64,000 nucleotides of DNA from a candidate division WOR-1 bacterium RIFOXYB2_FULL_46_45 (GTDB taxonomy: Bacteria; Margulisbacteria; WOR-1; XYC2-FULL-46-14), in contig MEUE01000001.1 of assembly GCA_001771585.1 (NCBI GenBank), forward strand, positions 191,789 through 255,788. Reading direction: 5' to 3'. The notes under the pieces were generated by a model that was not told the DNA's origin, searched no databases, and was given only the letters and a program-made list of their open reading frames with translations. Below are positions 31,700-57,036 of this stretch, one piece after another (the stretch's first letter is position 1; the number at the start of each line of letters is the position of its first letter). The position numbers and the translations under genes were made by a program.

Positions 31700-31719
31700 G
31701 TCAGATCTCCTTACCTGTT

Positions 31720-32826: not shown

Positions 32827-33238
32827 CGGTGCTCCTTTTGCCCTCAAATCTGCCTTTATCTGCTCCTTCAATATACGGACCATTTTTTACTTCGATGATT
32901 TCGGCTTCTTGAAGAACCTCAATTCCATGACCTGCACCGGCAAGCAGAATAGTATCACCCGCAGACAACTTACGGCTCTCTAAAAATTCTTGCTCAAAAG
33001 AGTAAAAATCAATGCGAATTTCTCCGCTTTTTATAAATAAAACTTCTTGTGTGCCTATAGTATTTCTATGGACAGGGTTATGAATATGAGGTGAAATTCG
33101 ATAACCATTAGGACGTGTCATATAACCAAGTTGCAAGGGATATTTATTGGGTGACAAGAACTGAATTCCTTCCTGTTTATGGTCCTTATAAACAATAATA
33201 GCGATAACTGTATCGTTATGAATTATGTTTTCAAGCAT
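32813..33238 (-). CDS. Cupin-fold protein
   Basis: PHIHN...QEVLFIKSG...GAGHG...EVKNGPY metal-binding cupin pattern. Confidence 0.7.
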   Translation of the reverse strand: MLENIIHNDTVIAIIVYKDHKQEGIQFLSPNKYPLQLGYMTRPNGYRISPHIHNPVHRNTIGTQEVLFIKSGEIRIDFYSFEQEFLESRKLSAGDTILLAGAGHGIEVLQEAEIIEVKNGPYIEGADKGRFEGKRSTDDSC

Positions 33239-33246
33239 AAATATAT

Positions 33247-34158
33247 TTAGGCTCGGACAAATCCATGCTCATTTTTTTTATAATCTCTCATCCCATCAAA
33301 TGTCCCTTTTATCACTAAATCATAATGATATTTTTTATTCATCTCGATATAGCGCCCCTTAAATAATATTTTTTGCACTACCCTTATGAGAGCTCTTGTC
33401 ATTATTTGTAAAACAAGGTAGCTGTAGGTAATAAAATTAGCTTTATCATTATTACAACTTTTTGCAAGTACCGCCCCCACCGCATATGCGTATTTATATA
33501 CATAATCAGAAGGAGTAGTGGGAATAGGATGAAAAAACACTAAATCAGGCAAATATAATACTTGTTCCTTTGCCATTATCAATCTAAAAAAAATATCGCT
33601 TTCTTCAGAACCAAAATATTTCGCACCCACCCCAAAATCCTCATCATAATATCCTATTTTTTCAATCACTTTTCTGCTTAATACATGCGCGCTTCCCATA
33701 AAATTCTGAAAATCAATTCGAGTTAAGCTTTTAACGTTGGTGTTGCAAAAAAGGCGCGAGAACGGAACGTTTCGAATAGGATCAATAAGCCGGCCGCAAA
33801 AAGCTCCAACCTTATTATGCGTCATGGTATTCTTTAATAATACGGCAATAAAGTCCTCTTTAACAAAAGCGTCATCATCAATAAAAACAAGATAGTCCCC
33901 CGTGCTTTTTGCAATCGCAAAATTCCTTGCCGCCGATAATCCCACCTTATCAATATAATAAAACCTGGTTATTGCCGGATAGTTAAGTCCTATGTTTTTC
34001 TTTTGCTTTGTTTTTTGGATTACCACTAAAATTTCAATGGGAATATCTTGCTGATGCTCATGCGCTTTCTCGATAGAAGATATGCATTTTTGCAATTCTT
34101 GGTCTCTATCAATTGATGCGATAATAAATGATATTCTCCAAACCGCTTCTTTTATCAT
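33247..34158 (-). CDS. GT2 glycosyltransferase
   Basis: GLSAARNFAI, FIDDDA, GYYDEDFGVG, GSEESD. Confidence 0.85.
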   Translation of the reverse strand: MIKEAVWRISFIIASIDRDQELQKCISSIEKAHEHQQDIPIEILVVIQKTKQKKNIGLNYPAITRFYYIDKVGLSAARNFAIAKSTGDYLVFIDDDAFVKEDFIAVLLKNTMTHNKVGAFCGRLIDPIRNVPFSRLFCNTNVKSLTRIDFQNFMGSAHVLSRKVIEKIGYYDEDFGVGAKYFGSEESDIFFRLIMAKEQVLYLPDLVFFHPIPTTPSDYVYKYAYAVGAVLAKSCNNDKANFITYSYLVLQIMTRALIRVVQKILFKGRYIEMNKKYHYDLVIKGTFDGMRDYKKNEHGFVRA

Positions 34159-35657
34159 TAAGAGCTAACCCTTCTATCCCGTAATCGCTTTTGCCGGTCC
34201 GCTCGTTCCTGAACGTAATAAACCAAAAAAGCAAAAACCAGATCATTAAACACAAAAGTCTTAAAATACTTTTTTATCCCGAGAAATATTCCTTTTGGGT
34301 ATTGCATAAAAAGCGATGAAAGTTTGATTAGATTATGCGGGGAACATATCGGAATAAAAAAATTACGAAGAATATATTTTCGCAAGAATCGCGAGCGTAT
34401 TTTATATAATTCATTTTCAGAAAAATGGATTTGCAGCATCGGCCGCTTTTTTAGGCCCATTTCATCCCTATCGAGATTTTTTATCCAATTGTTTTCTTGA
34501 GACATTTTCATAAGTTCGGTCCCGGGATAGGGAGTAAGAAAATAAGCGCTGACAAAGCTTGGCCTTATTTCTTTCGTTAGTTTTATAGTTGCCTCCACAT
34601 CTTCTTCGGTTTCCGATGGTGATCCGAACATAAAGGTTCCCAGAGTCCTTAATCCTGCTGATTTTGCGCAAGAAAACGCCTTTTTTATTGATACCGCATC
34701 CGAATTTTTCTTTAACGCTTTTAAGACTTTGTCTGAGCCGCTTTCAACGCCAAAGTCCACCTGTACAAACCCTGCTTTTTTCATTAATTTAAACATTGCC
34801 TCGTCGGCGGTCTTAACATGGGCCTGGCATCCAAAAATCAGTTTTATATTATTGCTAATCACTTTTTCACAAAACTCAATGACTCTTTCCTTGTTAAGGG
34901 TAAATGTGTCGTCAATAAACCACACTGCATCTACATGAAAATCTCTAATTAATTGGATAATTTCTTGGATTACATTATCAATGCTTCGATATCTTACTTT
35001 TCGGCCAAAGGTGCATTGGCTTCCGCACCAAATGCATTGAAATGGGCATCCCCGTCCAGTCATAACCGTTGTTGATCTTTCGGTCCATCTTCCGCGAATG
35101 ATCCCGGGAGGCATCAAATAATCGTCAAAATTTAATAGATGCCTTGCGGGAAAAGGTATTTCGTCTAAATTTGATATATAAGGCCTCCCCGGTGTAGCTA
35201 TAAAATTCCGATCTTCATCCCTATAAATTATTCCTTTTGTCCCCTTCCAATCCGTGCCATTGTTAAGATGGACGCATAATTCAAGGAAAGTATATTCCCC
35301 TTCACCAATAACCGCCGCATCTGCGTTTAATTCTAAAATACTTTCTTCGGGAAGCGCGGTAACATGCACTCCTCCAACAACAAAAAAGCTATTTGGTAGT
35401 TTTTCTTTGATTGTTTTTGAAATATACTTGGCTCTTGGCCAATAGTCGGTCAAAACGGTCATGCCAATTATTTCCGGTTGATAATCCAGCATCGCGGGGA
35501 TGCTACGGTCATCATAGGGATAAATATCGAATATTTTTACCTCATATCCGTTCTTCTCGAGTATGGCAGCAATATAAAGGATCCCCAGAGGGGGCATGTT
35601 GCCGGAAAAAGACTCGACACGAGGATTTATCAATGCTATTCTTTTACCGTTTTTCAT
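34158..35657 (-). CDS. B12-binding radical SAM protein
   Basis: PPLGILYIAAIL, VVGGVHVT, GRGCPFQCIWC, DFGVESGSDKVL. Confidence 0.93.
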   Translation of the reverse strand: MKNGKRIALINPRVESFSGNMPPLGILYIAAILEKNGYEVKIFDIYPYDDRSIPAMLDYQPEIIGMTVLTDYWPRAKYISKTIKEKLPNSFFVVGGVHVTALPEESILELNADAAVIGEGEYTFLELCVHLNNGTDWKGTKGIIYRDEDRNFIATPGRPYISNLDEIPFPARHLLNFDDYLMPPGIIRGRWTERSTTVMTGRGCPFQCIWCGSQCTFGRKVRYRSIDNVIQEIIQLIRDFHVDAVWFIDDTFTLNKERVIEFCEKVISNNIKLIFGCQAHVKTADEAMFKLMKKAGFVQVDFGVESGSDKVLKALKKNSDAVSIKKAFSCAKSAGLRTLGTFMFGSPSETEEDVEATIKLTKEIRPSFVSAYFLTPYPGTELMKMSQENNWIKNLDRDEMGLKKRPMLQIHFSENELYKIRSRFLRKYILRNFFIPICSPHNLIKLSSLFMQYPKGIFLGIKKYFKTFVFNDLVFAFLVYYVQERADRQKRLRDRRVSS

Positions 35658-35660
35658 GGT

Positions 35661-36800
35661 TTATCTTTTTAGTAACTCCAGATATTTTGCGACCCATTCT
35701 TCGGGAGAAGGAAATTTTGCAAATTGTTGCCCACTCTTTTCTGAATATATCTCCCAATTATGCTCATTACAAATATAGCATATTTTTCTAAAAGCATCTT
35801 CATAATTATCTAAATTATAATATAAGGCCGAATCATCACACATGCTATAAGCATATGGCAAATTCGGCAAAATTATCGGCAATTCAAAAAACATCGCCTC
35901 CACCAATGGAATACCAAAGGTTTCTGAGCTTGAAGGAAAGAACAAACACAATGATTTTTGATAATATGGGGCTAGCTTTTCGTGAGATAATTCCCCCAGG
36001 TTTTTAATAATATGGCCGAGTTTTTTTGTTTTAATGTCATCTATCAGTTTGTTCGCTTCCCTATTTAAATTAATGTCTATGGTGATGCAAAACTCCAATT
36101 GCATTTTTTCAATGTCTTTTCGGTATTTATCGGCCAAATCCAGCAAAAAACCATAGTTTTTATGCAACGAAAATCGGCTGACATATAAAATCGATTTCCT
36201 TTCCTTAAAAGGAATGCTTGCCTCCCCACCTGATTTCATTGCTAACAACGATTCGCTTATTGAGTTTCTTATTACACGGATAGATTCTTCGGAAACGTTA
36301 TATTTTTTAATGAGCGCGTTTTTCATGAAAAGACTTTCCACCACCACATTGCCGCAACTTAGCGTGGTTAAAAAAAACAATAACCGTTTTATTCTTTCCA
36401 ACATCCTGGATTTAAAACCATATTTTGACAAAAGGACATCGTCCACCAAATGCGGGTGATGACAAAGCACAACTTTTTTGAATAATAACGGGACAACGGA
36501 AAAATTCCCAAAAACCAGAACACCACGAGGCCGCAAGAAAAGCGTTATCATTGGGAATATAATAATATCGTAGAAAAACCTGAATACAATCTTCTTTACG
36601 CCGCGGAAAAATGGAACATAAAAGATTTTTATCCCGTCTTTTTGCTGCGGCTTTAAATCGCCATAAAAAGGTGCCCGGGGCAATATGATTGTAAATTCGT
36701 CATTGACATCTTTCACTTTATGCAAATAAGCAATAAAGGTTTTTGCCAGCATACCGGTACCGGCAGAAGATTGGTTGTAAAAGTTTAATATGTATTTCAT
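35661..36800 (-). CDS. GT4 glycosyltransferase
   Basis: LYVSRFSLHKN, FPSSSETFGIPLVEAM. Confidence 0.88.
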   Translation of the reverse strand: MKYILNFYNQSSAGTGMLAKTFIAYLHKVKDVNDEFTIILPRAPFYGDLKPQQKDGIKIFYVPFFRGVKKIVFRFFYDIIIFPMITLFLRPRGVLVFGNFSVVPLLFKKVVLCHHPHLVDDVLLSKYGFKSRMLERIKRLLFFLTTLSCGNVVVESLFMKNALIKKYNVSEESIRVIRNSISESLLAMKSGGEASIPFKERKSILYVSRFSLHKNYGFLLDLADKYRKDIEKMQLEFCITIDINLNREANKLIDDIKTKKLGHIIKNLGELSHEKLAPYYQKSLCLFFPSSSETFGIPLVEAMFFELPIILPNLPYAYSMCDDSALYYNLDNYEDAFRKICYICNEHNWEIYSEKSGQQFAKFPSPEEWVAKYLELLKR

Positions 36801-36804
36801 ATTT

Positions 36805-38061
36805 TTATCGCATTATTGGCACTCTATCCACAGATTTAGACATTGCGCTTATCAACGCAAATATAAAAAAGATATATACAGAATTAATTCCTCCAACATT
36901 GATCCAGCTAAACACTATCGAAAGAAAAGCGAGCCCCAAGCCCAAATATAATATCCTTTCTTCCGTATTTTCTTTAAAACAACTTATTTGATAAGATAAT
37001 TTATTCCAAAAACTTTTTAAAAAAAATAGCCAGAGAGCCAAACCGATAATTCCAGTTTCCGCAGCTAGGCCCAAATAAAAATTGTAGGGGTAGCCCGCAC
37101 CGCCACCCTCTAATCGCATCCCTTCAAAACCATACTCCATTGATCTATTTCTATATCCCCCAATCCCGACCCCAAACAAAGGATTGGAGACAAACATCCT
37201 GGAAGCAATAATCATTCCGGTTGCTCTTTCTATCCTGGACCAATCCCTGCCTCCCAGCAATAAGATATCTGCAAATAATCCATAAAAAATGCTAGAACTA
37301 ATAACAAACACCACAAACAGAACATACCATCTTCTTTTATTACCTTTTAAAATGAAACAAGGAAACGAAATAGCGGCCAAAAAAACAGAATAAAAACCTG
37401 TGCGTCCAAACGTAAATAAAAAACCGAGTAATATTCCAAAAAAACAATAAAAGTCCCTGCGTTCAAATTTATAATATAAACGAGGCAAAAGCAGGCACAA
37501 CGGAACCGCCAAAAAACCGGCCCACATTGATGGTTCAGCTGCCAGTCCGGTTACCCTATACAGGCCAAACCAGCCGACACGATGGCCTTCGTTTGTTGGA
37601 TCCCATAATGCGAAAGAGCTATTTGCATTTCTAAACAATTTAAACACTATTGAACCGGTAGGCAGAAAAGCCTGCAAAACAGAGTAAAGCGAAAAAACAA
37701 CACAAATTAAAATAAATAAGTTAACATATCTAATTAGCTGCTTTTTACTTTGTAAAACAAAGACATTGACAAGCAAAACATAAAAAAAGAAATATATAGT
37801 ATATGTTGCCAGTTGGCTAATATGCTTTTCATTAATCATTCCCGAAAAAGAAAAATATCCTACTGTCATAAGCAAATAAACAAAAAAAACGAGAAAAAAC
37901 ACCGCTTGCACAGGAAAGTAAATTTTTGCGTTTTTTTTGCGTAGGAAAAAATATAAAATCAGCAAAGAAGTGGTGGCATACGAAATCAAAATATCCTTGC
38001 CCCCTATTTGGGCTATCGACAACACTAAAAGCGGAAGAGATAATATGAATATTACAAACAT
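36805..38061 (-). CDS. O-antigen ligase / Wzy polymerase-like membrane protein
   Basis: About 11 TM; RVTGLAAEPS, TFGRTG, ER...NPLFGVGIG, YNFYLGLAAETGIIG. Confidence 0.82.
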   Translation of the reverse strand: MFVIFILSLPLLVLSIAQIGGKDILISYATTSLLILYFFLRKKNAKIYFPVQAVFFLVFFVYLLMTVGYFSFSGMINEKHISQLATYTIYFFFYVLLVNVFVLQSKKQLIRYVNLFILICVVFSLYSVLQAFLPTGSIVFKLFRNANSSFALWDPTNEGHRVGWFGLYRVTGLAAEPSMWAGFLAVPLCLLLPRLYYKFERRDFYCFFGILLGFLFTFGRTGFYSVFLAAISFPCFILKGNKRRWYVLFVVFVISSSIFYGLFADILLLGGRDWSRIERATGMIIASRMFVSNPLFGVGIGGYRNRSMEYGFEGMRLEGGGAGYPYNFYLGLAAETGIIGLALWLFFLKSFWNKLSYQISCFKENTEERILYLGLGLAFLSIVFSWINVGGINSVYIFFIFALISAMSKSVDRVPIMR

Positions 38062-38063
38062 AT

Positions 38064-39512
38064 TTACACCTTGTTAAATCCAGGCGCAGGGATACGCCTA
38101 ACCATTTTATATAATTTAAACAAATACGAATTAGACCTTATTATTAACCCAACCGATTTTCTTAATAAAGATATCCGTGGCCGATGTCGCTTATAAACAT
38201 TGTACTCAAACCAGACACAACCGCGTTGTATCTGCCTCCTGCTAAAGCCGGGTAAGTTTAAAATGGCTTTTTCTCTTTCGTTCTCGGTATCAATTTGGCC
38301 TTTTATTAGTCCTTTTTTTTCGCAAAGGGCAAACAAATCGGTTCCCGGATAAGGATAGAAAATAGAAACAGACGTCCAATCCGGCTGGCAAAGCCGATTC
38401 ATTCTAACTGTTTCTTTGAAATCATTAATGGTTTCTCCCGGCAATCCCATCATATTTAGAAAACATACCTGTAGGCCATATTTTCTTGCCCGCTTTACAG
38501 TTCTGATAATATCATCGTTAGAATAATTGCGTTTTAAGATTTCACGGCGCACTCTTTCGCTACCGGATTCCAGCCCAATATTAACAAACCTGAAATTTGC
38601 CCTTTTAAATGCGCTAAAAATCGGTTCCACATCCAAATTGGGAGTAACCCTCAAATTAGTCCCAAAAGACCATGGACAACTAAGTCCTTTGTTAAAGTTT
38701 TCCAGTTTAGAACATAAATCGATCACCCAGTCCGCATTTGTCCCAATTGTTTCTACTTCCAAATAAATTTCCCTCTTGCTTTTCTTTTTTACATGTTTTT
38801 TTGTAAGCTCTTCTATTTCACTTAAAATATTGTCAGGAGATCGATATCTGGTATAAGTTCCACTCGCCAGCTTTCTCAATGCATGATTGCAACAATAAGT
38901 ACAATTAAATGGGCAGCCGCGCCCCAATAAAACCGCATATACGGAGTTTGGTTCTTCCTCTATCCATTCCTGCCACATTTCTCTGTCGGGAAAGGGCAAT
39001 TCATCAAGATTCTGCAAAAAAGGACGCGGCTTATTCTTTTCAATCTTATCCTCATGTTTGATCCATAGATTTGGGATTGACAAAGGAATTCTCCCTTTTT
39101 CTAATTGTGAAACTAATTCCAAAACAGGATACTCTCCCTCTCCAACACATAACGCATCAAAATCATCTAAAACCCCTTCCGGATTAAGTGAAACATGCGC
39201 TCCCCCAACCAATAAATATATGTGGGGGTATTTTTTCTTAACATATCTTGCCAAGCTGGCAACAAAAGAATATTCACTGCTTACAGCGGTAAAACATATC
39301 AAATGTGGATGATTATTGTTTATATATTCATCAAGGATTTCCTCGTTTTTATTTCCTGAAATTCGACTTAAAACCACCAGCCTTGTAGAATGTCCGTGTT
39401 TTTTCAATAAGGAAGATATGTATGATATGCCAAATTGTATTGACTCCAAAGCCCTCAATGGCTTGCGCGGTGTTACTATATTATATAATGAATAGATAAA
39501 AAGAATTTTCAT
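38064..39512 (-). CDS. B12-binding radical SAM protein
   Basis: QFGISYISSLL, VGGAHVS, GRGCPFNCTYC, IGLESGSERVR. Confidence 0.92.
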   Translation of the reverse strand: MKILFIYSLYNIVTPRKPLRALESIQFGISYISSLLKKHGHSTRLVVLSRISGNKNEEILDEYINNNHPHLICFTAVSSEYSFVASLARYVKKKYPHIYLLVGGAHVSLNPEGVLDDFDALCVGEGEYPVLELVSQLEKGRIPLSIPNLWIKHEDKIEKNKPRPFLQNLDELPFPDREMWQEWIEEEPNSVYAVLLGRGCPFNCTYCCNHALRKLASGTYTRYRSPDNILSEIEELTKKHVKKKSKREIYLEVETIGTNADWVIDLCSKLENFNKGLSCPWSFGTNLRVTPNLDVEPIFSAFKRANFRFVNIGLESGSERVRREILKRNYSNDDIIRTVKRARKYGLQVCFLNMMGLPGETINDFKETVRMNRLCQPDWTSVSIFYPYPGTDLFALCEKKGLIKGQIDTENEREKAILNLPGFSRRQIQRGCVWFEYNVYKRHRPRISLLRKSVGLIIRSNSYLFKLYKMVRRIPAPGFNKV

Positions 39513-48560: not shown

Positions 48561-50396
48561 CTATAAAAAAGTCGCCATAGTTTGCTCATTTACAGGCGAG
48601 AAACACGCTTGAATTATTTGCCCGCCCTTATCTTTTAAATGACTATATTTGACATCACTTAAATTAAGTATTTTATCAATTTCTTCATCAAGCTCATTTA
48701 GTGTCCTCGCCACAAAATGCATGTCATCTTTAGGAAACCAGTCCATTGGATCAAAATTTAAATCGAGATCGCTTCTCACTCTAATTACTGGAATACCATA
48801 AGCTATAGCATCAAATATTGTAGCAGATGCCATTGCTATCAACATTGATACTTTTGGTAAAACATCAGCCATTGTCTCATCAACGATATCGTATGAATCC
48901 TTACTCATTTCAACCTTATTGATTATAGCATCCAGCTCTAACGATGACATCATTGGATGTGGTTTAAGCCAAATTCTCAATCTTTTTTGGGCCTGGAGCA
49001 CATTCCATGCTTTCGACAATAATTCCAAAGCACTTGATCTTGCCAGAGGCAAAGTTATAAGCACAATATCGTTTTGGCTTCGGTTTTGTCTATTACTATC
49101 TAGTTTTAACAAATACTGAAATCTCAAGGCCGGTCCAACAACCATTTTAGCAAGAGGGAACCCCTCATCAATCAAAGTCTGCTTAAAAAAATTCCCGGAA
49201 CAAATTATTTTATCTGGCATGGGAAGAATATCAATTTCATCCTTAGATGTATACAAACACAATGATAAAGGAAACAAAGAAGCATGCTGAAAACCATATA
49301 ATTTTGTGTCTGGTGAAAACCTAGCCTTTCCAAGTATTAAGGATTTTTCCGGAAGCATGTTTTCAAAAGTATATATTATTTGTTTAATCTTAATTCCCTG
49401 ATCCCGAAGCCTTTTAATAAGAAAATAATGCATTATTACCTGGCCTGATTCCCAAAGGAGCATATACCTCATATTCTCATTCTTAAATAAAAGTGATATG
49501 TCCATTCCAGCAAACACAAATTTTCTAAACATCAAAACTACAGAGCGGAAGGCAAGTATAATTGTCTGCAAATAATCATTGGGCCTATAATAATCCTCTG
49601 GAATTATAAAAACCTGATCAGATTTTCTGATCCGACACATAGCATTAACATACGTTAATTTGCTATTAGTATTTATTATCGGCAGAATAGCAGCACTAAC
49701 TCCTTTCTCCAATAAATAATTGTAGAGATTTGGGAAATATAAATCCCTAAATTCCCCCTCACTGCTAAAGTTTTTTTCGCCCACCCAAGTTCTTATAATC
49801 GTCAACTCTCCATTTGTGTGTTCTATTGATTTTTTTTTGTTCTGACGTGTTATGAAGGCATAAATCTTTCTGTAAATACTCTTTAAAACAAACCTTGAAG
49901 TTCTATATAATATTCGAAGGATATCCTTGGCCACATAGAGCTGATAATCATATTTTCTCACAATTCTATAATCAGTAGTAAAATCAGATCTTTTTATTAT
50001 CTCTAACAATACTGCACTTTCGGAGACAATACAGACATTCTTATTTTTAAACTTCGCACTTAAGAGCTCTTTCATGATCTTAAGATAACAAATATAAAGA
50101 AAAGCCGGGCTTCCCATTACATTTTTTTCTGCAACATCGGATATCCACCAAGGCAAAGAATTAAACTTTGTACTTAATGATGCAATATAATCAATGTAAG
50201 GCCGACGCAACTTATACGATATGTCATTTAAAAGATCTCCCAGATCAATATAAAGAGACCCCGCCGGCGCACTTACTTTAAGCTTTAAAAGCCGCTCATA
50301 ATCTCTGCCAAGGAAAAGCCAATAAAAGTCCTTCCCATCTCGAAGATTTTTTGGAAAATCATTTTCAGCTAAGATTAAAACTGGCTGTTTAAGCAT
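48561..50396 (-). CDS. 611-aa surface-carbohydrate biosynthesis protein of unknown function (possible GT-B ulosonate transferase)
   Basis: C-terminal half GFQHA...PDKIICSG...GPALRF...KPHP...AIAYGIPVI resembles GT-B/capsule-synthesis proteins; translationally coupled to the KdsB-like gene. Confidence 0.6.
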   Translation of the reverse strand: MLKQPVLILAENDFPKNLRDGKDFYWLFLGRDYERLLKLKVSAPAGSLYIDLGDLLNDISYKLRRPYIDYIASLSTKFNSLPWWISDVAEKNVMGSPAFLYICYLKIMKELLSAKFKNKNVCIVSESAVLLEIIKRSDFTTDYRIVRKYDYQLYVAKDILRILYRTSRFVLKSIYRKIYAFITRQNKKKSIEHTNGELTIIRTWVGEKNFSSEGEFRDLYFPNLYNYLLEKGVSAAILPIINTNSKLTYVNAMCRIRKSDQVFIIPEDYYRPNDYLQTIILAFRSVVLMFRKFVFAGMDISLLFKNENMRYMLLWESGQVIMHYFLIKRLRDQGIKIKQIIYTFENMLPEKSLILGKARFSPDTKLYGFQHASLFPLSLCLYTSKDEIDILPMPDKIICSGNFFKQTLIDEGFPLAKMVVGPALRFQYLLKLDSNRQNRSQNDIVLITLPLARSSALELLSKAWNVLQAQKRLRIWLKPHPMMSSLELDAIINKVEMSKDSYDIVDETMADVLPKVSMLIAMASATIFDAIAYGIPVIRVRSDLDLNFDPMDWFPKDDMHFVARTLNELDEEIDKILNLSDVKYSHLKDKGGQIIQACFSPVNEQTMATFL

Positions 50397-51147
50397 ATTG
50401 TTTCCTGATTTTATCTTTTTTCATTAATTCTTTCACAATCTTTAAATCATCTGGGGTATCAACACTAATTTTTGCATCATCAATCAATACCGCCCGCATT
50501 TTTATTCCATGTTCTATTACCCTTAAATACTCGTTAAATTCGATACTCTCCAAAGGAGTCGGGCTCCAAGATGCATATTGCAATAAAAAACCCTTGCGAA
50601 AAGGAACAATAAAACACATCTTTAATTGTTCTTTTACTAGAACCCTAGCATCACTGGGTAAATCAGACCGAGAACAATAAAGGACATTTGATTTAAGATC
50701 TAAAACAGCCTTAATGTCTGACGTCCTGGCTTTTTCATTATATCTCGTCACACCCACCGCTATCTGTAGTTTTGGATCCTTTATTAATGGGGCAACAATT
50801 TCATCTATATGCCTGGGATTAACTAATGGCTCATCCCCCTGAACATTAACAACTATATCGCATTCTACCCCCTGACAAGCCTCTGCCAATCTATCAGATC
50901 CGGTTTTATGGTGTTTGCCAGTCATAATAACAGCAATATTATGTTTCTCGCCGGCTTTTCTAATCTCCTCGCTATCAGTGACCAAATAAACATCATCAAG
51001 GCTCTTGGATAGCTTAGCCCGCCTACAGGTATGGATGGCCATAGGAAGACCTTCAATTTCAATTAGTGCCTTACCTGGCAGACGGCTGGATTCCAGCCTG
51101 GCGGGTACCATGCCGACAACCTTAGTTTTTTTGGTTTTGCTTACCAT
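50389..51147 (-). CDS. KdsB-like CMP-ulosonate synthetase (cytidylyltransferase)
   Basis: PARLESSRLPGKAL, TGSDR, VNVQGDEP, LESIEFNEYLR, SVDTPDDL. Confidence 0.9.
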   Translation of the reverse strand: MVSKTKKTKVVGMVPARLESSRLPGKALIEIEGLPMAIHTCRRAKLSKSLDDVYLVTDSEEIRKAGEKHNIAVIMTGKHHKTGSDRLAEACQGVECDIVVNVQGDEPLVNPRHIDEIVAPLIKDPKLQIAVGVTRYNEKARTSDIKAVLDLKSNVLYCSRSDLPSDARVLVKEQLKMCFIVPFRKGFLLQYASWSPTPLESIEFNEYLRVIEHGIKMRAVLIDDAKISVDTPDDLKIVKELMKKDKIRKQYA

Positions 51148-51911
51148 GAGCTAAATTCTGACTTGATCTTTTTGAACGTTCGACAAAGTTCAGTTGAATC
51201 AAGTGAATAAGTGATAAATTGGATTCCTATTTCTTTGAACCAGCGGAGCATCTTCATATCAGCAGTAAAGGCGCCGACCGTAACTTTCTTCTTCTGCGCC
51301 CTAGCAACACAATCCTTAACAAAATTTTTTAGTTTTGGATTATCCAATTGCCCCGGCATGTCTAAAGCTTGAGATAAATCACACAGCCCAAAATAAACAA
51401 CATCAACATTAGAATCATCCATGATTTTCTCAAGATTTTTAACCCCTTCCTGCCCCTCAACGATCAGCACGCTCATCGTTTTAGTGTTAGCTTTTTCAGC
51501 ATGCTTTGAAGTATCCTCTGGATCGTATCCTCCCGCCCGGGTAAAAGGAGATAGCCCTCGCTCTCCAATCGGGTGATATTTAATAGCCCTGATTGCATTT
51601 TCTCGATCAGCCACTGTTTCAATATGAGGGACAACAACACCATGCGCACCAACATCTAATGCTCGCAAAATATCGGCCTCGTCATTTCGAGGAACTCTGA
51701 TCAAAGGAGTACAATTTTCAACTTCGGCGGCTCTGACCATATTTTCAGCAGTTTCAAAACTAATCGGACCATGCTCCATATCAATGATAATAAAATCCAT
51801 GCCGGAAGCTGCCAGGACATTAACGGTTGAAGCTGATGGCAGGATACACCAGGTGCCCAAAACCTTCTCTCCTTTATGTAATTTTTCCTTCAAAACATTG
51901 TTTTTAATCAT
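51141..51911 (-). CDS. HpcH/HpaI-family class II pyruvate aldolase
   Basis: IIDMEHG, LIRVP, ALDVGAHGVVVPHI, RGLSP, VE, FGLCDLS. Confidence 0.88.
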   Translation of the reverse strand: MIKNNVLKEKLHKGEKVLGTWCILPSASTVNVLAASGMDFIIIDMEHGPISFETAENMVRAAEVENCTPLIRVPRNDEADILRALDVGAHGVVVPHIETVADRENAIRAIKYHPIGERGLSPFTRAGGYDPEDTSKHAEKANTKTMSVLIVEGQEGVKNLEKIMDDSNVDVVYFGLCDLSQALDMPGQLDNPKLKNFVKDCVARAQKKKVTVGAFTADMKMLRWFKEIGIQFITYSLDSTELCRTFKKIKSEFSSW

Positions 51912-51920: not shown

Positions 51921-52676
51921 CTAACTCACCAATATTTTAGAAATATCTTCAACCACTAATTCGGTCAATTCAGCCAGGCGCGACCGCGACGAGATCCCGG
52001 TACAAACGGCAATACAGGCCTTAAGTCCAGCATTGTTTCCCATTTGGATATCTGTTTCAGCATCACCAACCATGACTGCAGCCAATTTATCAGCTTTCAA
52101 TTCCTTTAATATCAAATTAATCATGTCAGGAGCTGGCTTTGATTTTTTAACTGAATCAGCACCAACAATATAATCCAACTTATCAGTTAATGCTAAGAAA
52201 TCCATTGATATCTTAGCTCTCTCTTCTCTATCTGTGGTAGCAATAGCAATCTTGCAATCTCTACTTAGTAAAACATCTATCAACTCTTTTGCTCCAGGCA
52301 ACGGTTTGATCAGTTCTCCCAGCATATCGGTTGACCATTGATCAACCTCTTTGAATATTTCAAAACAGACCAGCCCGGCATCGATTATTCCCCAAACAGC
52401 TAACTGATCAACCGCCGCTTGCATCACAATCTCCCGTTTTTTGATCCCAACCGGCCCCTCGGAACGCAACTGCCCGGCTTTAACATCAACCCCCATCGCG
52501 AACATCAAAGCAGTTTTATCCTCCTCATTCAGTTTGAATCGATTGCAGATAAGCTCTGCCCGCTTGGCGATCATCTGTGACCAGTAATGATAGAGGTCAA
52601 TGAGTGTGCCATCTCTATCGAAAATGACCAAATTAATATTTTCAATAATATTGTCGTTAATTTTTAAATCAACCAC
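51921..52676 (-). CDS. HAD-superfamily phosphatase
   Basis: IFDRDGTLID (DxD), IATT, SKPAPDM, MVGDAETD; GTG start overlapping the upstream gene end. Confidence 0.88.
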   Translation of the reverse strand: MVDLKINDNIIENINLVIFDRDGTLIDLYHYWSQMIAKRAELICNRFKLNEEDKTALMFAMGVDVKAGQLRSEGPVGIKKREIVMQAAVDQLAVWGIIDAGLVCFEIFKEVDQWSTDMLGELIKPLPGAKELIDVLLSRDCKIAIATTDREERAKISMDFLALTDKLDYIVGADSVKKSKPAPDMINLILKELKADKLAAVMVGDAETDIQMGNNAGLKACIAVCTGISSRSRLAELTELVVEDISKILVS

Positions 52677-53673
52677 GTAAAGGCTCCATATTTGCATCAA
52701 CCAGTTTTTTAGCGACATTTACCGCCTGTTTCAACAAAGCTAAATCATTATCAAAGTCTTTTTGATTAATAATTGTCACCACGATCTTTCTAGCAAAAGT
52801 CCCAATTGATATGCCATGAACTTTAACGCCACAAAGTTTAAGCAACTCCCCTGTTTTGCTGTTTGTCCCTCCAGAAGCTAATATTTTTACTGGTAATTTA
52901 TGCTTAATAATTATATCTGAAATAGCAACTGTTTGCAGTGTGGTATTAAAATCATCGCTTCCCCCGCTCATAGGCACTCCATCTGCCTGAACAATCAGGC
53001 GATCAGGAGTTACGGCCAAAGCCGATTTAATCCTTTTTATCAGATGGTGATCGCTAAGCTGCGAGCGGTCCATACACATGCTGATAAAATTATCTTTCAA
53101 AAAACCGGCCATAAGCTGCCAATCTTTTTCAACAGACTCATCATCAGGGATAATTGCGTGTAATTCAAAGGTTTCAACTCCGTTTTTCAAACACTCCGGC
53201 AGAATAGTTTTAAGCTCACTCCTTTTATCAAAAAAAGTTACCGCATTAACGGGACAAACCCTGGCACAATCACCACAACCAATACACTTTTTTTCAATAA
53301 CCTGATGCTGATCTGCGATAGCTTTTTGGATACAATCTTTTCGGCAAGCGTCACAATGGGTACAAAGTGAAGCGTCAATTTTTGCTTTGCGGATATGCGG
53401 ATCGCCGCGCATGCCAATACTCACGTTTATAAAGGGCCTCGTTTTAAGTTTGATCCCAAGTTTTGGAGCCAGCTCAAAAGCTTGATCAACACCAAGGGAT
53501 GAGCTTTTGACCACTTCTACATTAGCTGAAATATCAATTCCTAAAGCTCCGGCTAAAGTATAAATTAACGAAAGCTTCCGCACCTCTTCCGCATCTTCGT
53601 TGCCTGCGCCGCAAACTATTTTAAAATACTCGCGCCGCTCAAATATCTCTTTTAATTCTTCATACCTGCTCAT
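52669..53673 (-). CDS. LdpA-like iron-sulfur protein with two ferredoxin-type [4Fe-4S] motifs
   Basis: FKIVCGAG...IYTLAGA..ID N-terminus recalls cyanobacterial LdpA; CTHCDACRKDC and CIGCGDCARVCP; ELH, QADGVPMSGG, SGGTNSKT. Confidence 0.8.
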   Translation of the reverse strand: MSRYEELKEIFERREYFKIVCGAGNEDAEEVRKLSLIYTLAGALGIDISANVEVVKSSSLGVDQAFELAPKLGIKLKTRPFINVSIGMRGDPHIRKAKIDASLCTHCDACRKDCIQKAIADQHQVIEKKCIGCGDCARVCPVNAVTFFDKRSELKTILPECLKNGVETFELHAIIPDDESVEKDWQLMAGFLKDNFISMCMDRSQLSDHHLIKRIKSALAVTPDRLIVQADGVPMSGGSDDFNTTLQTVAISDIIIKHKLPVKILASGGTNSKTGELLKLCGVKVHGISIGTFARKIVVTIINQKDFDNDLALLKQAVNVAKKLVDANMEPLRG

Positions 53674-55391
53674 AAATAGTTTTTTAACCCCTTATAAAAT
53701 TCCTTGTAATTAGTTGGCGTTATTATATGCAAACCCTCGCCACCTTGTTCCACCATGTAGGAATCGATTTGCTTAAGGTAGTTCAGGTTCCAGTTATGTT
53801 TTTCTTTTAGGTCATCAATCTGTTCCGCCTCGTTCTTTTCATTGTAAAAGTGATATATCCCTTTGGGAGAGGTCGCCATATAGCCGTCCATCCCAACAAT
53901 AAATATCCGTTTCGCCCCCATGACCAAAGCAACACCGGCCAGGAGAACCGCCACAGTACGACAATTGGCTGAAATAACTCCGTCTTGGATAGCAAAGGCA
54001 TTCTCCATTGAGTCTTCATAATAAATAAGCTCATAATCACGATTCACGTAATCGGCGATCATCTCTTTGGGCAAATGCTGGCTAATCATCAGTTTAGATT
54101 TTTTTGCTACACTCCCCACATAATCAACAAAGCGGCGTTTGTTGGTAAAGACGTGATAATCGGGCATAAACATCCCTCCCAAATAATTTCCGCCCATCAC
54201 AACCGGCTTATATTTGTCGATAAAAGCCTGGATATCCGATTGGAATTGTTTCAGCGTTGGCCCATTGGCCAAGATCAGGAAATCTTTTTCTTTATGGCGG
54301 TTTATATAGCTGACCCGAGGCCGATCTCCATTGAACAAACGGCTGTTAGCATTGGCGCCCGCATTGACCTTTTTGCCAAAAATCCCTTTTCTCAAGACAT
54401 TATCAACCAGCTCTTTTTTAAAGCCAATCGGATTCTGGACCGTGATCGCTTCCATAATATTCCAGATATCTTCGATATCGTATTCTTTACGCTCGACCAG
54501 GTTGCTGGCATAGTTGGGATGACAGCCGTAGGTACCGGAGAGCATATACGGCAAATTATAACCCCAACCGCATTGCTTATGCAGATCGTTATAATAATGA
54601 TCGATCAGATTCAGGACGGGAATGACATTATATTTATCCGGCTGCTGCCGGTGCAGATAAGCCAGCATAACCTCGGTCGGCAGGTTCCCCGCCCCTCTAC
54701 CCATGCCAAAGACCGAACTATCAATTATTTGCGCACCGGCTTTGATTGCAGCCAAAGAATTGGCAAAAGCCATCTGTAAATTATTATGAGGATGAAATCC
54801 CCACCTAACGTGCTTAATCTCAAGTAATGGCTCAAAAATAACCGCCAGCTGATCGGGAAACATAGATCCATAGGTATCAGCAACATAGGCGTAATCTATC
54901 GGCAGATCTTTTAATGTGGACAATAATTCCTTTATTTCTTTTTTGCTGTAAGAAACAAAACCCATAAAATTAGCCGATACTTCAAATCCCATTTTCTTTA
55001 TTTTAATTAAATTTTCCAAAGCCTCTTTAAAATTATTCTTATGAAAAGCAGATCGAATAAGTTTTACAGGAGACCCAACATATCCGAATAAATCCCCTAG
55101 TTCATATTTACCATGATCTACCATTAGGGCAACCCTTGCACCATTGATGCCAGAACAAATATCAGAAATAAGCCTAGTTTGGCAGAAGCGAAATGCTCCA
55201 TATTTATTCTTGTCGAAATATTTTTCTGTTCCGTGATAGCCAAGTTCAACATAATCCACGCCCGATTTCGACAGCGCACGGTATGTCTCTCTGGCAAGCA
55301 TAAAATCAAAGTCCCAGCAATTTACATAGCCGCCATCGCGAATTGTGCAATCTAATATTTCGATTTTTGTTTTTTTCTCACTATTTTTCAT
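53670..55391 (-). CDS. DRE-TIM (HOA/DmpG-like) aldolase domain fused to a C-terminal Maf/MptE/GT42-like domain
   Basis: ILDCTIRDGGY, ADTYG, GFHPHNNLQMA, SVFGMGRGAGNLPTE; C-domain ILANGPTL...GGN...PDYHVF...RIFIVGMDGY. Confidence 0.85.
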   Translation of the reverse strand: MKNSEKKTKIEILDCTIRDGGYVNCWDFDFMLARETYRALSKSGVDYVELGYHGTEKYFDKNKYGAFRFCQTRLISDICSGINGARVALMVDHGKYELGDLFGYVGSPVKLIRSAFHKNNFKEALENLIKIKKMGFEVSANFMGFVSYSKKEIKELLSTLKDLPIDYAYVADTYGSMFPDQLAVIFEPLLEIKHVRWGFHPHNNLQMAFANSLAAIKAGAQIIDSSVFGMGRGAGNLPTEVMLAYLHRQQPDKYNVIPVLNLIDHYYNDLHKQCGWGYNLPYMLSGTYGCHPNYASNLVERKEYDIEDIWNIMEAITVQNPIGFKKELVDNVLRKGIFGKKVNAGANANSRLFNGDRPRVSYINRHKEKDFLILANGPTLKQFQSDIQAFIDKYKPVVMGGNYLGGMFMPDYHVFTNKRRFVDYVGSVAKKSKLMISQHLPKEMIADYVNRDYELIYYEDSMENAFAIQDGVISANCRTVAVLLAGVALVMGAKRIFIVGMDGYMATSPKGIYHFYNEKNEAEQIDDLKEKHNWNLNYLKQIDSYMVEQGGEGLHIITPTNYKEFYKGLKNYL

Positions 55392-55392
55392 T

Positions 55393-57036
55393 TTATTGAC
55401 TCTCCGTAATTTCAACATTAACAAGACTCTTCAGAAATCCCTCCAACTTATCTTTTTTGATCCATTTAAAATAATAATATTTAGAAACATCAATAGTTTT
55501 AATGCGTTGCGTTATTAGCTTATTTTTATTTGGATAAAATATCTTCATATCCGCAATTGGACCTGAAGGATCATAATCCGCTAAATTATAACGATGTATA
55601 AAACATTTCCTATCTTTAAGAAACCTATTCTCTTCTACACTGTCCCGATCATATCCAATCCATTTTTCTCCCTTCCACACCTTATTAAATATGCCGCTCC
55701 ATTCGTAATAACTGTAGTTATATATTGCTGTTTCGATGGATGAACTGGCTTTATTAGTATCATTTTCAATGAAAAATGTGGAATACTTCTTAGAATAAGG
55801 CATCTCTTTCAGCTGAAGCATTATAGATTCATCTTTTATAAACCGATATTGCCAATTAATATAATTTTCTATTCCCACATAAGAAAACAACAATATCAAG
55901 GAAATAAACATAATATTTACTGCCTTTATCCCCAATTGCAACTCCTTTTCAATAAACCTAATAAAGCAAAACAAGATTAATGCGAGAGGCAAGCCGACCA
56001 GAAGCAAATGCCGTGACGCATAGGAAGAATCAGGGAATTTACCGACGGCTGCATAAGGAAATATTGCCAAAATCAGAAGCATCCAACTAAAAACATATGT
56101 AATAAGTTTATTTGATATCTCCTTGGAATCAATCGCTTCTTTAATTAGCCGATAAAAAAGGTAGCACGCAAAAAATACAAAAGCAGGAATACTGATAAAT
56201 AATGGGATATTAATAATTGACAGAGAAGCCCTAATCGCAACATAAATTCCCTTCCAAAATGCAGCAAACACTCTCAGCAGCTTTCCGGTAGAGGCGAATT
56301 GAAGTTCGTTCTGATTTGCGTAAAATCCGTAAGCAGGAAAATATGTTTTTTCAACAAAGAAAAATAACATTGGAATTATCCAATAATCGAGATACTTAAA
56401 TAATGAGGATATCATTATCTTAATACTATTCCTACCAATCATATCTTTTGTAATAATAAAAAATAAAACACCACAATAAAACACCAATATTGAACTTGTA
56501 AAAAATGATAAAACAAACAGTAAAATCGAGAGTCCACGCCAAAACAATTGCGACAATCCAAGTGAAAATTCATTGTTTTTAACTTTATAAACAAAAATAT
56601 ATACTCCTAAAATAAAAACAAAATAGCAAAAAATGTAGTGGGCATGAATAGCAATAAAAGCAGCTTTAAAAGCAGGATAAATGGATGCCAAAGAAGCGAT
56701 AAAGAAGCTGTCCAAATCCTTAAATTTTAGTTTTTTAAATATTTTATATACCAAGATTCCACTCAGGACAATCCAAATAAAGGCAAAAAATCTATACCCA
56801 AACACCAGATTGCTTCCGAATAGAAAAGAATATGCTATATGCAAATAGGCAGGGCCACCAAGGATATATCCCGACTCACTATATATAGAAATTACCTCAT
56901 TATAATTTCCCGATAAAAGCTGGGGGATCAAGACATAGTCATCCCAACAAATTCCATTCATAATAAGAAAAAAGCCATGGCACAGAAGTATCACTAAAAA
57001 CAACCAAATTATTTTGTTCTTAAAAAGAGGAATCAT
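55393..57036 (-). CDS. Multi-TM GT-C / GtrII-like membrane glycosyltransferase
   Basis: CWDDY acidic loop after TM1, about 11 TM, SRHLLL, soluble C-terminal tail. Confidence 0.6.
   Translation of the reverse strand: MIPLFKNKIIWLFLVILLCHGFFLIMNGICWDDYVLIPQLLSGNYNEVISIYSESGYILGGPAYLHIAYSFLFGSNLVFGYRFFAFIWIVLSGILVYKIFKKLKFKDLDSFFIASLASIYPAFKAAFIAIHAHYIFCYFVFILGVYIFVYKVKNNEFSLGLSQLFWRGLSILLFVLSFFTSSILVFYCGVLFFIITKDMIGRNSIKIMISSLFKYLDYWIIPMLFFFVEKTYFPAYGFYANQNELQFASTGKLLRVFAAFWKGIYVAIRASLSIINIPLFISIPAFVFFACYLFYRLIKEAIDSKEISNKLITYVFSWMLLILAIFPYAAVGKFPDSSYASRHLLLVGLPLALILFCFIRFIEKELQLGIKAVNIMFISLILLFSYVGIENYINWQYRFIKDESIMLQLKEMPYSKKYSTFFIENDTNKASSSIETAIYNYSYYEWSGIFNKVWKGEKWIGYDRDSVEENRFLKDRKCFIHRYNLADYDPSGPIADMKIFYPNKNKLITQRIKTIDVSKYYYFKWIKKDKLEGFLKSLVNVEITESQ

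What the first reader, a model, noticed from the sequence alone, without database searches (positions are those of the whole stretch)
52669..53673. LdpA homologue embedded in a sugar pathway hints at an enzymatic origin of a circadian input protein
LdpA is known in cyanobacteria as an Fe-S redox-sensing input to the Kai clock, with no established catalytic role. This homologue keeps the FKxxCGA...YTLAGA start, both ferredoxin motifs and the QADGxPMSGG region, but overlaps an aldolase gene upstream and a HAD gene downstream. No kai genes are in the window. That suggests the family includes metabolic Fe-S enzymes (inference).
Basis: partly seen in the sequence, partly recalled or inferred. Interest (0 to 1): 0.72.

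Follow-up and report, generated by a model that had tools for sequence, protein, structure and literature searches.

The report
LdpA-like iron-sulfur barrel in sugar-acid cassette
The gene encodes a real but distant relative of the cyanobacterial clock protein LdpA, and it is a fixed part of an uncharacterised gene cassette, found in many bacteria and some archaea, that probably makes a Kdo-like surface sugar acid, so the LdpA family probably includes enzymes.

Summary
Observation confirmed. ORF 52669-53673 (minus strand, 334 aa) matches LdpA_C (54 bits, above Pfam's cut-off). It scores 164 bits on NCBI's LdpA equivalog model (cut-off 450), so it is a homologue, not the clock orthologue.

- **Fold:** AlphaFold gives a confident (beta/alpha)8 barrel (pLDDT 89.5). 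A 2x[4Fe-4S] ferredoxin module is inserted in the beta3-alpha3 loop, on the catalytic face.
- **Linkage:** it is not unique to this genome. In 20 of 20 metagenomic loci with enough flank, the gene sits with the DRE-TIM aldolase, HAD phosphatase, HpcH aldolase and KdsB-like cytidylyltransferase. The HAD gene follows directly in 56 of 57 loci. Hosts include Margulisbacteria, Omnitrophota, Syntrophobacterales and Altiarchaeota. A natural LdpA-like/HAD fusion also exists.
- **Conserved site:** K18, D47, S85, D91, H93, E170, H172, Q229, D231, a Gly-rich phosphate motif and R295 are conserved across 105 representatives, including true LdpA.

Most likely it is a ferredoxin-linked oxidoreductase acting on a phosphorylated intermediate of a CMP-ulosonic-acid pathway. 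This is inferred; the reaction is unknown. The "enzymatic origin of LdpA" reading is plausible but unproven, because the tree is unrooted and no activity is known. True LdpA and its Melainabacteria relatives have a different conserved neighbour, an R3H ATPase.

The parts
52669..53673 (-). LdpA-like protein, 334 aa: a (beta/alpha)8 barrel with an inserted 2x[4Fe-4S] ferredoxin module
   Evidence: ORF. Pfam LdpA_C 54 bits; NF045992 164 bits against a cut-off of 450. AF2 model pLDDT 89.5, pTM 0.86.
53605..53625 (-). F17-K18-I-V-C21-G-A23 at the end of beta1. K18 is kept in 99% of 105 family representatives.
53227..53391 (-). Ferredoxin-type insert (aa 95-149) between beta3 and alpha3, on the catalytic face of the barrel
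   Evidence: Secondary structure of the model. Fer4 family matches at residues 97-152. PDB sequence matches only to 2x[4Fe-4S] domains.
53332..53364 (-). First cluster motif, C104-x2-C107-x2-C110-x3-C114
   Evidence: 95-100% conserved
53254..53286 (-). Second cluster motif, C130-x2-C133-x2-C136-x3-C140
   Evidence: 96-100% conserved
52960..52989 (-). Q229-A-D231-G232-V-P-M-S-G-G238: end of beta6 and its loop. Q229 and G232 are invariant; D231 is kept in 94%.
52861..52875 (-). S267-G268-G269-T-N271: the beta7 loop. Together with G291/A294/R295 after beta8, it resembles the standard phosphate-binding motif of TIM barrels (inference).
53670..55424 (-). Upstream partner: HMGL-like (DRE-TIM, 4-hydroxy-2-oxovalerate-aldolase-like) domain fused to an MptE/CST-I-like C-terminal domain. 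Its stop overlaps the LdpA-like start by 4 nt.
   Evidence: Immediately upstream in 41 of 50 related loci.
51921..52718 (-). Downstream partner: HAD-IA phosphatase. It overlaps the LdpA-like stop.
   Evidence: Immediately downstream in 56 of 57 related loci.
51141..51911 (-). HpcH/HpaI class II pyruvate aldolase
   Evidence: Present in 20 of 20 well-flanked loci.
50389..51147 (-). KdsB-like cytidylyltransferase. It passes the NCBIfam NF003952 subfamily cut-off (222 bits against 193).
   Evidence: Present in 20 of 20 loci.
48561..50396 (-). TIGR04326-family surface carbohydrate biosynthesis protein (611 aa), a putative transferase
   Evidence: 69 bits, below the cut-off. Present in 18 of 20 loci.

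Best explanation
The gene encodes a member of the LdpA superfamily that is not the clock protein.

**Architecture.** It is a DUF561/Ycf23-type (beta/alpha)8 barrel. A two-cluster ferredoxin module is inserted in the beta3-alpha3 loop, so the clusters sit over the catalytic face.

**Proposed role (inferred).** It is the redox enzyme of a conserved six-gene cassette:
1. DRE-TIM aldolase/MptE-like fusion
2. LdpA-like protein
3. HAD phosphatase
4. HpcH pyruvate aldolase
5. KdsB-like CMP-synthetase
6. TIGR04326 putative transferase

The cassette would build, CMP-activate and transfer a Kdo-like 3-deoxy-2-ulosonic acid for the cell surface.

**Proposed mechanism (inferred).**
- A phosphorylated aldol intermediate is held by the beta7/beta8 Gly-rich phosphate motif.
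- It is acted on by the conserved K18/D47/D91/H93/E170/H172/Q229/D231 site, which may be a His/carboxylate metal site plus a lysine.
- Electrons from a low-potential donor such as ferredoxin pass through the two [4Fe-4S] clusters. They drive a reduction, for example a reductive deoxygenation or a C=C or C=O reduction.
- The HAD enzyme then removes the phosphate.

**Shown:** homology, fold, conserved residues, gene linkage and a natural fusion to a HAD domain.

**Inferred:** catalysis, the phosphorylated substrate, the direction of electron flow and the nature of the product.
For: Homology and fold:
- LdpA_C and NF045992 matches.
- AF2 barrel with the insert after beta3.
- Foldseek finds only TIM-barrel enzymes. 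The top hits are class II aldolases, TrpA and the PEP-mutase family, at E about 1e-6 and TM about 0.5.
- The barrel is homologous to DUF561 over both halves.

Conserved site:
- All columns conserved in at least 85% of 105 representatives lie in the cluster motifs, on beta-strands, in beta-alpha loops or at the first turn of alpha8.

Linkage:
- The same cassette occurs in an unnamed marine or freshwater organism, an Altiarchaeota MAG and a Syntrophobacterales MAG.
- Of 77 distinct metagenomic loci, 20 of 20 with at least 4 kb upstream and 5 kb downstream carry the HMGL, HAD, HpcH and KdsB-like genes. HAD is directly downstream in 56 of 57.
- Start and stop codons overlap in the window.

Fusion:
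- P0126 is an LdpA-like protein fused to a BT0820-family HAD phosphatase (E 2e-22). It is seen on two independent contigs.

Product:
- The KdsB-like enzyme passes a Kdo-cytidylyltransferase subfamily cut-off.
Against: - No member of the superfamily has a demonstrated enzymatic activity. The only studied member, LdpA, is described as a redox sensor (PMC13421787, PMC5520375).
- Foldseek and profile searches give no specific catalytic relative, so the reaction type is a guess.
- I could not read the model coordinates, so the geometry of the proposed site and its distance to the clusters were not measured.
- Both clusters are fully Cys-ligated, so they cannot themselves be the catalytic centre.
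- B12-radical-SAM genes lie near the cassette in 23 of 33 long loci. This leaves room for a pure electron-donor role.
- The fusion protein P0126 sits on short contigs without cassette genes.
Confidence: 0.6

Rival explanations
1. Dedicated electron carrier. The protein only shuttles electrons through its two clusters to another enzyme of the glycan locus, most likely a B12-dependent radical SAM methyltransferase. The barrel is a docking scaffold.
For: - A B12-radical-SAM-like gene lies within the sampled flanks in 23 of 33 cassette loci of at least 12 kb. It is sometimes inserted inside the cassette.
- The window's glycan island carries five such genes (note e1-5218643).
- The clusters are classical all-Cys ferredoxin clusters.
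Against: - 10 of 33 long loci have no such gene, yet all keep the LdpA-like gene between the aldolase fusion and HAD.
- A scaffold would not keep about ten polar barrel residues invariant at under 30% overall identity.
- The fusion to a HAD phosphatase points to a small-molecule phosphate substrate.
Confidence: 0.15
2. Non-redox barrel enzyme. It is a sugar-phosphate isomerase, epimerase or lysine-dependent aldolase, and the Fe-S module is structural or makes activity respond to redox state, as proposed for LdpA.
For: - Invariant K18 in beta1, together with a phosphate motif, resembles Schiff-base or acid-base phosphate-binding barrels.
- The best Foldseek hits are aldolases and TrpA.
- LdpA is regarded as a sensor (PMC13421787).
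Against: - All eight cluster cysteines are kept in 95-100% of 105 representatives from anaerobes, which suggests an obligatory redox role.
- The cassette already has two aldolases.
- No specific similarity to any isomerase or epimerase family was found.
Confidence: 0.15
3. True LdpA orthologue. It acts as a redox input to a Kai-type timing system in this organism, and its place in the glycan operon is incidental.
For: Full-length alignment to the LdpA model. The likely host lineage, WOR-1/Margulisbacteria by nearest named homologue, is related to Cyanobacteria.
Against: - 164 bits against the 450-bit equivalog cut-off, while a true LdpA scores 570.
- The two form separate, well-supported clades.
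- The same protein in the same cassette occurs in archaea and Syntrophobacterales.
- It lacks the R3H-ATPase neighbour shared by LdpA and its Melainabacteria relatives.
- No kai-like gene was found in the scanned parts of the window.
Confidence: 0.02

Closest known systems
LdpA (light-dependent period A) of Synechococcus elongatus PCC 7942; NCBIfam NF045992; Pfam PF12617 plus PF25160
   Same: - Same architecture over the full length: barrel, two CxxCxxCxxxC motifs inserted after beta3, and the QxDGxPMSG and GGTN motifs.
- The same conserved barrel residues (K18, D47, S85, D91, H93, K96, E170, H172, Q229, D231, R295) are kept in the true LdpA clade.
   Different: - About 26-35% identity; 164 bits against the 450-bit cut-off; a separate clade.
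- Clade-specific residues differ: N25, S49, C200, D202, Q247, D253, K257.
- The genomic context is a sugar-acid cassette rather than an R3H-ATPase neighbour.
- Hosts are anaerobic bacteria and archaea without photosynthesis.
DUF561 / Ycf23 (Pfam PF04481), an uncharacterised cyanobacterial and plastid barrel protein
   Same: The barrel halves on both sides of the Fe-S insert match the DUF561 model: N-terminal part to model positions 4-62, C-terminal part to 133-240. 23 of 28 insert-trimmed family members hit it, best E 1.6e-8.
   Different: DUF561's Pfam model is 243 positions long and matches only the barrel parts on either side of the ferredoxin insert. For the window protein itself the match is below Pfam's cut-off (16 bits against 21.6). 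Its function is also unknown.
TIM-barrel oxidoreductases fed by ferredoxin-type clusters, such as dihydropyrimidine dehydrogenase/PreA, and IspG (GcpE)
   Same: Analogy in how it may work: a (beta/alpha)8 barrel that binds a phosphate-bearing ligand, coupled to [4Fe-4S] clusters that deliver electrons. IspG reductively deoxygenates a phosphorylated substrate (established knowledge).
   Different: - There is no detectable sequence or specific fold relationship. Only the ferredoxin part matches PreA weakly, at 21.7 bits.
- The cluster module is inserted in a beta-alpha loop, not appended.
- No evidence for flavin.
- IspG's cluster has an open iron site; these clusters are fully Cys-ligated.
CMP-Kdo pathway (KdsD, KdsA, KdsC, KdsB) and the Neu5Ac-9-P/Kdn-9-P routes
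   Same: The cassette logic is parallel: carbon-carbon bond formation to a 2-keto-3-deoxy acid, a HAD phosphatase, a KdsB-type CMP-synthetase and a transferase.
   Different: There is no PEP-dependent KdsA/NeuB synthase. Two class II pyruvate aldolases and an Fe-S barrel protein take its place. The product is unknown.
DmpG/DmpF (BphI/BphJ) aldolase-dehydrogenase pair
   Same: A DmpG-like DRE-TIM aldolase is almost always encoded directly beside a redox protein (41 of 50 loci). This suggests a coupled aldolase-oxidoreductase pair.
   Different: The partner is an Fe-S barrel, not an NAD/CoA-dependent acylating dehydrogenase. The aldolase carries an MptE/CST-I-like C-terminal domain in its C-terminal half, the region where DmpG has its communication domain.

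Membership tests
Circadian clock protein LdpA (NCBIfam NF045992, equivalog) | Whole-protein score at or above the curated cut-off of 450 bits | tested here: not met
   164.3 bits. A true cyanobacterial LdpA (P0250) scores 570.3.
Circadian clock protein LdpA (NCBIfam NF045992, equivalog) | Falls inside the cyanobacterial LdpA clade | tested here: not met
   The cassette clade (SH-aLRT 95) and the LdpA clade (SH-aLRT 100) are far apart in a 105-sequence tree.
Circadian clock protein LdpA (NCBIfam NF045992, equivalog) | Acts on the Kai clock (period phenotype, effect on CikA/KaiA); kai genes in the genome | not testable with these tools
   No kai-like gene in the scanned parts of the window. Whole-genome search was shut.
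Circadian clock protein LdpA (NCBIfam NF045992, equivalog) | Conserved downstream Spore_III_AA/PTPase/R3H ATPase gene. This is my own observation for LdpA and its Melainabacteria relatives, 4 of 4. | tested here: not met
   The downstream gene here is a HAD phosphatase. The pair was seen in L017, L018, L101 and L102.
LdpA superfamily (Pfam LdpA_C PF12617 plus a ferredoxin insert) | LdpA_C domain above the gathering score | tested here: met
   54 bits against 22.2, residues 163-326.
LdpA superfamily (Pfam LdpA_C PF12617 plus a ferredoxin insert) | Two complete CxxCxxCxxxC motifs between the N-terminal and C-terminal barrel parts | tested here: met
   C104/107/110/114 and C130/133/136/140. Fer4, Fer4_7, Fer4_6 and Fer4_10 score above their cut-offs.
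LdpA superfamily (Pfam LdpA_C PF12617 plus a ferredoxin insert) | LdpA_Fe-S-bd (PF25160) above the gathering score | tested here: inconclusive
   27.4 bits against a cut-off of 27.6.
LdpA superfamily (Pfam LdpA_C PF12617 plus a ferredoxin insert) | Superfamily-wide conserved barrel residues (K18, D47, S85, D91, H93, E170, H172, Q229, D231, G268-G269, R295) | tested here: met
   All are present in the window protein.
DUF561/Ycf23 (PF04481) | Match above the gathering score of 21.6 bits | tested here: not met
   16 bits, E 0.007, residues 6-57 only. Relatives reach E 1.6e-8 and cover both barrel halves.
Catalytic TIM-barrel oxidoreductase fed by Fe-S clusters (functional class) | (beta/alpha)8 fold with conserved polar residues on the C-terminal face | tested here: met
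   AF2 model pLDDT 89.5 with eight strand-helix units. Conserved columns map to strands and beta-alpha loops.
Catalytic TIM-barrel oxidoreductase fed by Fe-S clusters (functional class) | Demonstrated substrate turnover dependent on reductant | not testable with these tools
   No biochemical data exist for any family member.

The most novel reading that the evidence does not exclude
The whole LdpA superfamily, including the cyanobacterial clock input protein, is a family of ferredoxin-linked TIM-barrel enzymes that bind a phosphorylated metabolite. LdpA would then report redox state to the clock through a catalytic or metabolite-binding site that it still keeps. In parallel, the cassette subfamily would carry out a so far undescribed Fe-S-dependent step in a PEP-independent route to a new CMP-activated ulosonic acid.
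Probability: 0.35. Interest if true: 0.8.

Novelty: new variant of a known kind. Interest (0 to 1): 0.62.

Why it matters
**For the clock field.** LdpA has been treated for twenty years as a cyanobacteria-only redox sensor whose mechanism is unknown (PMC5520375, PMC13421787). Three observations turn "how does LdpA work?" into a testable enzymology question:
- It belongs to a large family (955 representatives at E below 1e-3).
- The family shares an enzyme-like conserved barrel site.
- One subfamily is locked into a biosynthetic operon.

The cassette gives candidate substrates, and the conserved residues give mutants to make in LdpA itself.

**For glycobiology.** The cassette would be an uncharacterised route to a Kdo/sialic-acid-like sugar that uses pyruvate aldolases and an Fe-S enzyme. 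It is widespread in uncultured anaerobes and some archaea.

Tried and rejected
- **Genome-contig scan** with the single protein. The patterns were too specific, and only ferredoxin-domain hits in unrelated genes came back.
- **Sequence search of the PDB** with the protein and with an insert-trimmed family profile. Only ferredoxin domains or nothing, so no solved relative of the barrel exists.
- **Foldseek against the PDB**. Only generic TIM barrels at TM about 0.5. This does not identify a reaction class. I considered class II aldolase, fold-type III PLP and FMN-barrel readings. I did not adopt any of them, because no specific match supports them.
- **A third Fe-S cluster** on the four extra cysteines C21, C161, C200 and C281. 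Rejected, because they are invariant only in the core of the cassette clade and vary elsewhere.
- **Cluster-member look-ups for taxon names**. Almost no names were returned.
- **Literature searches** for the cassette or for LdpA homologues outside cyanobacteria. Nothing relevant. The two original LdpA papers are not held.
- **Plasmid and phage collections**. No homologue of the barrel.
- **RNA evidence**. Only groundwater and soil DNA metagenomes hold the sequence.
Full report
**1. The observation**

The ORF at 52669-53673 on the minus strand encodes 334 aa.
- FKIVCGA (17-23) and YTLAGA (38-43)
- two CxxCxxCxxxC motifs (104-114 and 130-140)
- QADGVPMSGG (229-238)

Profile matches:
- Pfam LdpA_C: 54 bits (cut-off 22.2).
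- Several Fer4 families above their cut-offs.
- LdpA_Fe-S-bd: 27.4 bits, against a cut-off of 27.6.
- DUF561: a weak N-terminal match.
- NCBI's LdpA equivalog model: aligns over almost the full length (E 4e-48) but scores 164 bits against a cut-off of 450.

The start codon overlaps the stop of the upstream gene (ATGA). The stop is overlapped by the HAD gene, whichever of its three in-frame starts is used.

**2. The neighbourhood**

All genes lie on the minus strand and abut or overlap:

| Coordinates | Gene |
|---|---|
| 53670-55424 | HMGL-like (DRE-TIM, 4-hydroxy-2-oxovalerate-aldolase-like) domain fused to an MptE/CST-I-like domain |
| 52669-53673 | LdpA-like gene |
| 51921-52718 | HAD-IA phosphatase |
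| 51141-51911 | HpcH/HpaI aldolase |
| 50389-51147 | KdsB-like cytidylyltransferase; passes the NF003952 Kdo-cytidylyltransferase subfamily cut-off |
| 48561-50396 | 611-aa TIGR04326-family protein |

Around these lie deoxyhexose, aminotransferase, methyltransferase and glycosyltransferase genes. The island has lower G+C (0.34-0.41) than the housekeeping part of the window (0.47-0.50).

**3. Is the linkage unique?**

No.
- Close homologues (54-73% identity) are named as coming from WOR-1/Margulisiibacteriota, Saganbacteria, Omnitrophota, Syntrophobacterales, Altiarchaeota and Euryarchaeota MAGs.
- Three look-ups showed the same cassette. Two of them had a B12-radical-SAM gene inserted.
- A metagenome scan returned 80 loci, of which 77 are distinct.
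- By tblastn with the window's proteins, all 20 loci with at least 4 kb upstream and 5 kb downstream contain the HMGL, HAD, HpcH and KdsB-like genes. 19 contain the MptE-like part and 18 the TIGR04326 protein.
- The HAD gene is directly downstream in 56 of 57 loci. The aldolase fusion is directly upstream in 41 of 50.
- Gene order varies slightly. HpcH lies before the fusion in one group of loci, and a radical SAM gene sits between HAD and HpcH in another. The conservation is therefore not just recent common descent of one island.

**4. Fold**

AlphaFold2 with a 37-sequence alignment gives pLDDT 89.5 and pTM 0.86, with eight strand-helix units. The ferredoxin module (about residues 95-149) is inserted between beta3 and alpha3. 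That is a beta-alpha loop, on the face where TIM-barrel active sites lie.

Searches for structural relatives:
- Foldseek against the PDB finds only generic TIM-barrel enzymes at E about 1e-6 and TM about 0.5. These are class II FBP-type aldolases, YdjI, TrpA and PEP-mutase/isocitrate-lyase proteins.
- Sequence and profile searches of the PDB find only the ferredoxin part.
- After removing the insert, 23 of 28 family members hit DUF561/Ycf23. One member matches DUF561 positions 133-240 with its C-terminal half.

The barrel is therefore a DUF561-type barrel with an Fe-S insert. DUF561 itself is uncharacterised.

**5. The family and its conserved site**

An exhaustive search finds 955 representatives at E up to 1e-3 and 85 at E up to 1e-30. 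In an alignment of 105 full-length representatives, the columns conserved in at least 85% are:
- K18 (beta1), G22, A41, G42, D47 (beta2), S85 (beta3)
- D91 and H93 (beta3 loop), K96
- the eight cluster cysteines and G132 of the insert
- E170 and H172 (beta4), Q229 and D231 (beta6)
- G232, G237, and G268-G269-x-N271 (beta7 loop)
- G287, G291, A294 and R295 (beta8 and the start of alpha8)

- Except for A41/G42, which follow helix 1, every one of these lies in a cluster motif, on a strand, or at the C-terminal face of the barrel. That is the usual pattern of a TIM-barrel enzyme.
- The Gly-rich beta7/beta8 elements look like the standard phosphate-binding motif. This rests on general knowledge of TIM barrels.
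- The true LdpA clade keeps all of these residues. It was identified by P0250, which scores 570 bits on NF045992 and lies next to ndhN.
- The extra cysteines C21, C161, C200 and C281 are invariant only in the core of the cassette clade, so they do not indicate a third cluster.

**6. Phylogeny and contexts of other clades**

In a quick maximum-likelihood tree:
- The cassette proteins form a clade of 11 representatives (SH-aLRT 95).
- Their sister is a clade of 41 representatives of about 300-330 aa.
- Two members of that sister clade are stand-alone genes in Clostridia-like contexts, without sugar genes.
- True LdpA is a separate clade (SH-aLRT 100) in the other half of the tree. It groups (SH-aLRT 92) with clades that include proteins named as Vampirovibrionales and Melainabacteria.

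In four of four look-ups, the gene is followed by a Spore_III_AA/PTPase/R3H ATPase. The four are one oxyphotobacterial LdpA, one unnamed relative, one Vampirovibrionales and one Melainabacteria. Two subfamilies therefore have two different conserved partners. The tree is unrooted, so the direction of evolution cannot be read from it.

**7. A Rosetta-stone fusion**

P0126 has 468 aa, is 42% identical to the window protein and falls in the cassette clade. It carries a C-terminal BT0820-family HAD phosphatase domain (E 2e-22). It is found on two independent short contigs from different data sources. Those contigs carry no other cassette gene. Together with the 56 of 57 adjacency, this ties the LdpA-like barrel functionally to a phosphatase. 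It supports the idea that the barrel's substrate or product is a phosphate ester.

**8. Most likely mechanism**

Shown: homology, fold, conserved site, linkage and fusion.

Inferred:
- The protein is the redox enzyme of the cassette.
- It binds a phosphorylated aldol intermediate through the beta7/beta8 motif.
- It uses the K/D/H/E/H/Q/D site, possibly a His/carboxylate metal site.
- It receives electrons from a low-potential donor through the two clusters.
- Its product is dephosphorylated by HAD, then extended or activated by the HpcH aldolase and the KdsB-like enzyme.

The reaction itself is unknown. It could be a reductive deoxygenation or a C=C or C=O reduction. I give this reading 0.6.

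Rivals:
- A pure electron donor for the B12-radical-SAM enzymes that accompany the cassette in 23 of 33 long loci: 0.15.
- A non-redox barrel enzyme with a regulatory Fe-S module: 0.15.
- A true clock LdpA: effectively excluded.

**9. Comparison with what is known**

- A 2017 survey of 11,264 genomes states that LdpA is exclusive to Cyanobacteria (PMC5520375).
- A 2026 review says that how LdpA controls CikA abundance is unknown (PMC13421787).
- I found no paper on LdpA homologues elsewhere, on DUF561 function or on this cassette.
- Databases do label such proteins "LdpA C-terminal domain-containing", so the homology itself is recorded.

What is new:
- The fixed membership in a biosynthetic cassette.
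- The enzyme-like site shared with LdpA.
- The HAD fusion.
- The separate R3H-ATPase pairing of the LdpA lineage.

Earlier notes of this scan reached a similar reading of the cassette in other genomes. I treated them as leads and re-derived the linkage and the fold here.

**10. Verdict**

The family very probably includes metabolic Fe-S enzymes, and LdpA keeps the same site. An enzymatic origin of LdpA is plausible but not demonstrated.
- Novelty: a new variant of a known kind.
- Interest: 0.62.

Noticed in passing
L018:6001-9303, L017:4312-7120, L101:5001-7687, L102:5001-7895: True cyanobacterial LdpA and its Melainabacteria/Vampirovibrionales relatives are each followed by a Spore_III_AA/PTPase/R3H ATPase (Ycf45-like). 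In three of the four loci a thymidylate kinase gene comes next. This is a conserved pair, 4 of 4, and I found no paper that mentions it. LdpA-type proteins therefore exist in non-photosynthetic Cyanobacteriota, although LdpA is said to be limited to Cyanobacteria.
   Followed up: partly
L103:660-2066 and L104:331-1737 (protein P0126): A natural fusion of an LdpA-like barrel with a BT0820-family HAD phosphatase domain, on two independent short contigs. The neighbours are small proteins without family matches, and no cassette gene is present.
   Followed up: partly
window 20354-39512 and cassette loci L014, L015, L036, L039, L043 and others: B12-binding radical SAM genes accompany the cassette in 23 of 33 loci of at least 12 kb. 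They are sometimes inserted between the HAD and HpcH genes. This suggests an optional C-methylation of the sugar acid or of its acceptor.
   Followed up: partly
window 51921-52718: The HAD gene has three in-frame start candidates: ATG 52718, ATG 52697 and GTG 52676. Homologues are 251-255 aa long, which favours one of the later starts. All three overlap the LdpA-like stop codon.
   Followed up: partly
window 50389-51147: The cytidylyltransferase passes the NCBIfam NF003952 cut-off for 3-deoxy-manno-octulosonate cytidylyltransferase (222 bits against 193). It falls just short of NF009905 (242 against 255). This hints at a Kdo-like substrate.
   Followed up: no
window 1-14000 versus 16000-64000: G+C drops from about 0.47-0.50 in the housekeeping genes (purN, purM, purF-like, hisS-like, glyQ/glyS) to 0.34-0.41 across the roughly 48-kb glycan island. 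This is consistent with horizontal acquisition of the island.
   Followed up: no
L019:8001-8966 and L020:8001-8963: The sister clade of the cassette proteins consists of stand-alone genes of about 320 aa in Clostridia-like genomes, with no conserved neighbours. In L019 the gene lies next to four small radical SAM genes and an isochorismatase.
   Followed up: no
L056, L065, L081, L083, L095, L098, L099: Variant cassettes exist. In five loci the TIGR04326-like gene replaces the aldolase fusion upstream of the LdpA-like gene. In L098 and L099 the HpcH aldolase is directly upstream, and the HMGL domain there gives no match to the MptE-like part.
   Followed up: no
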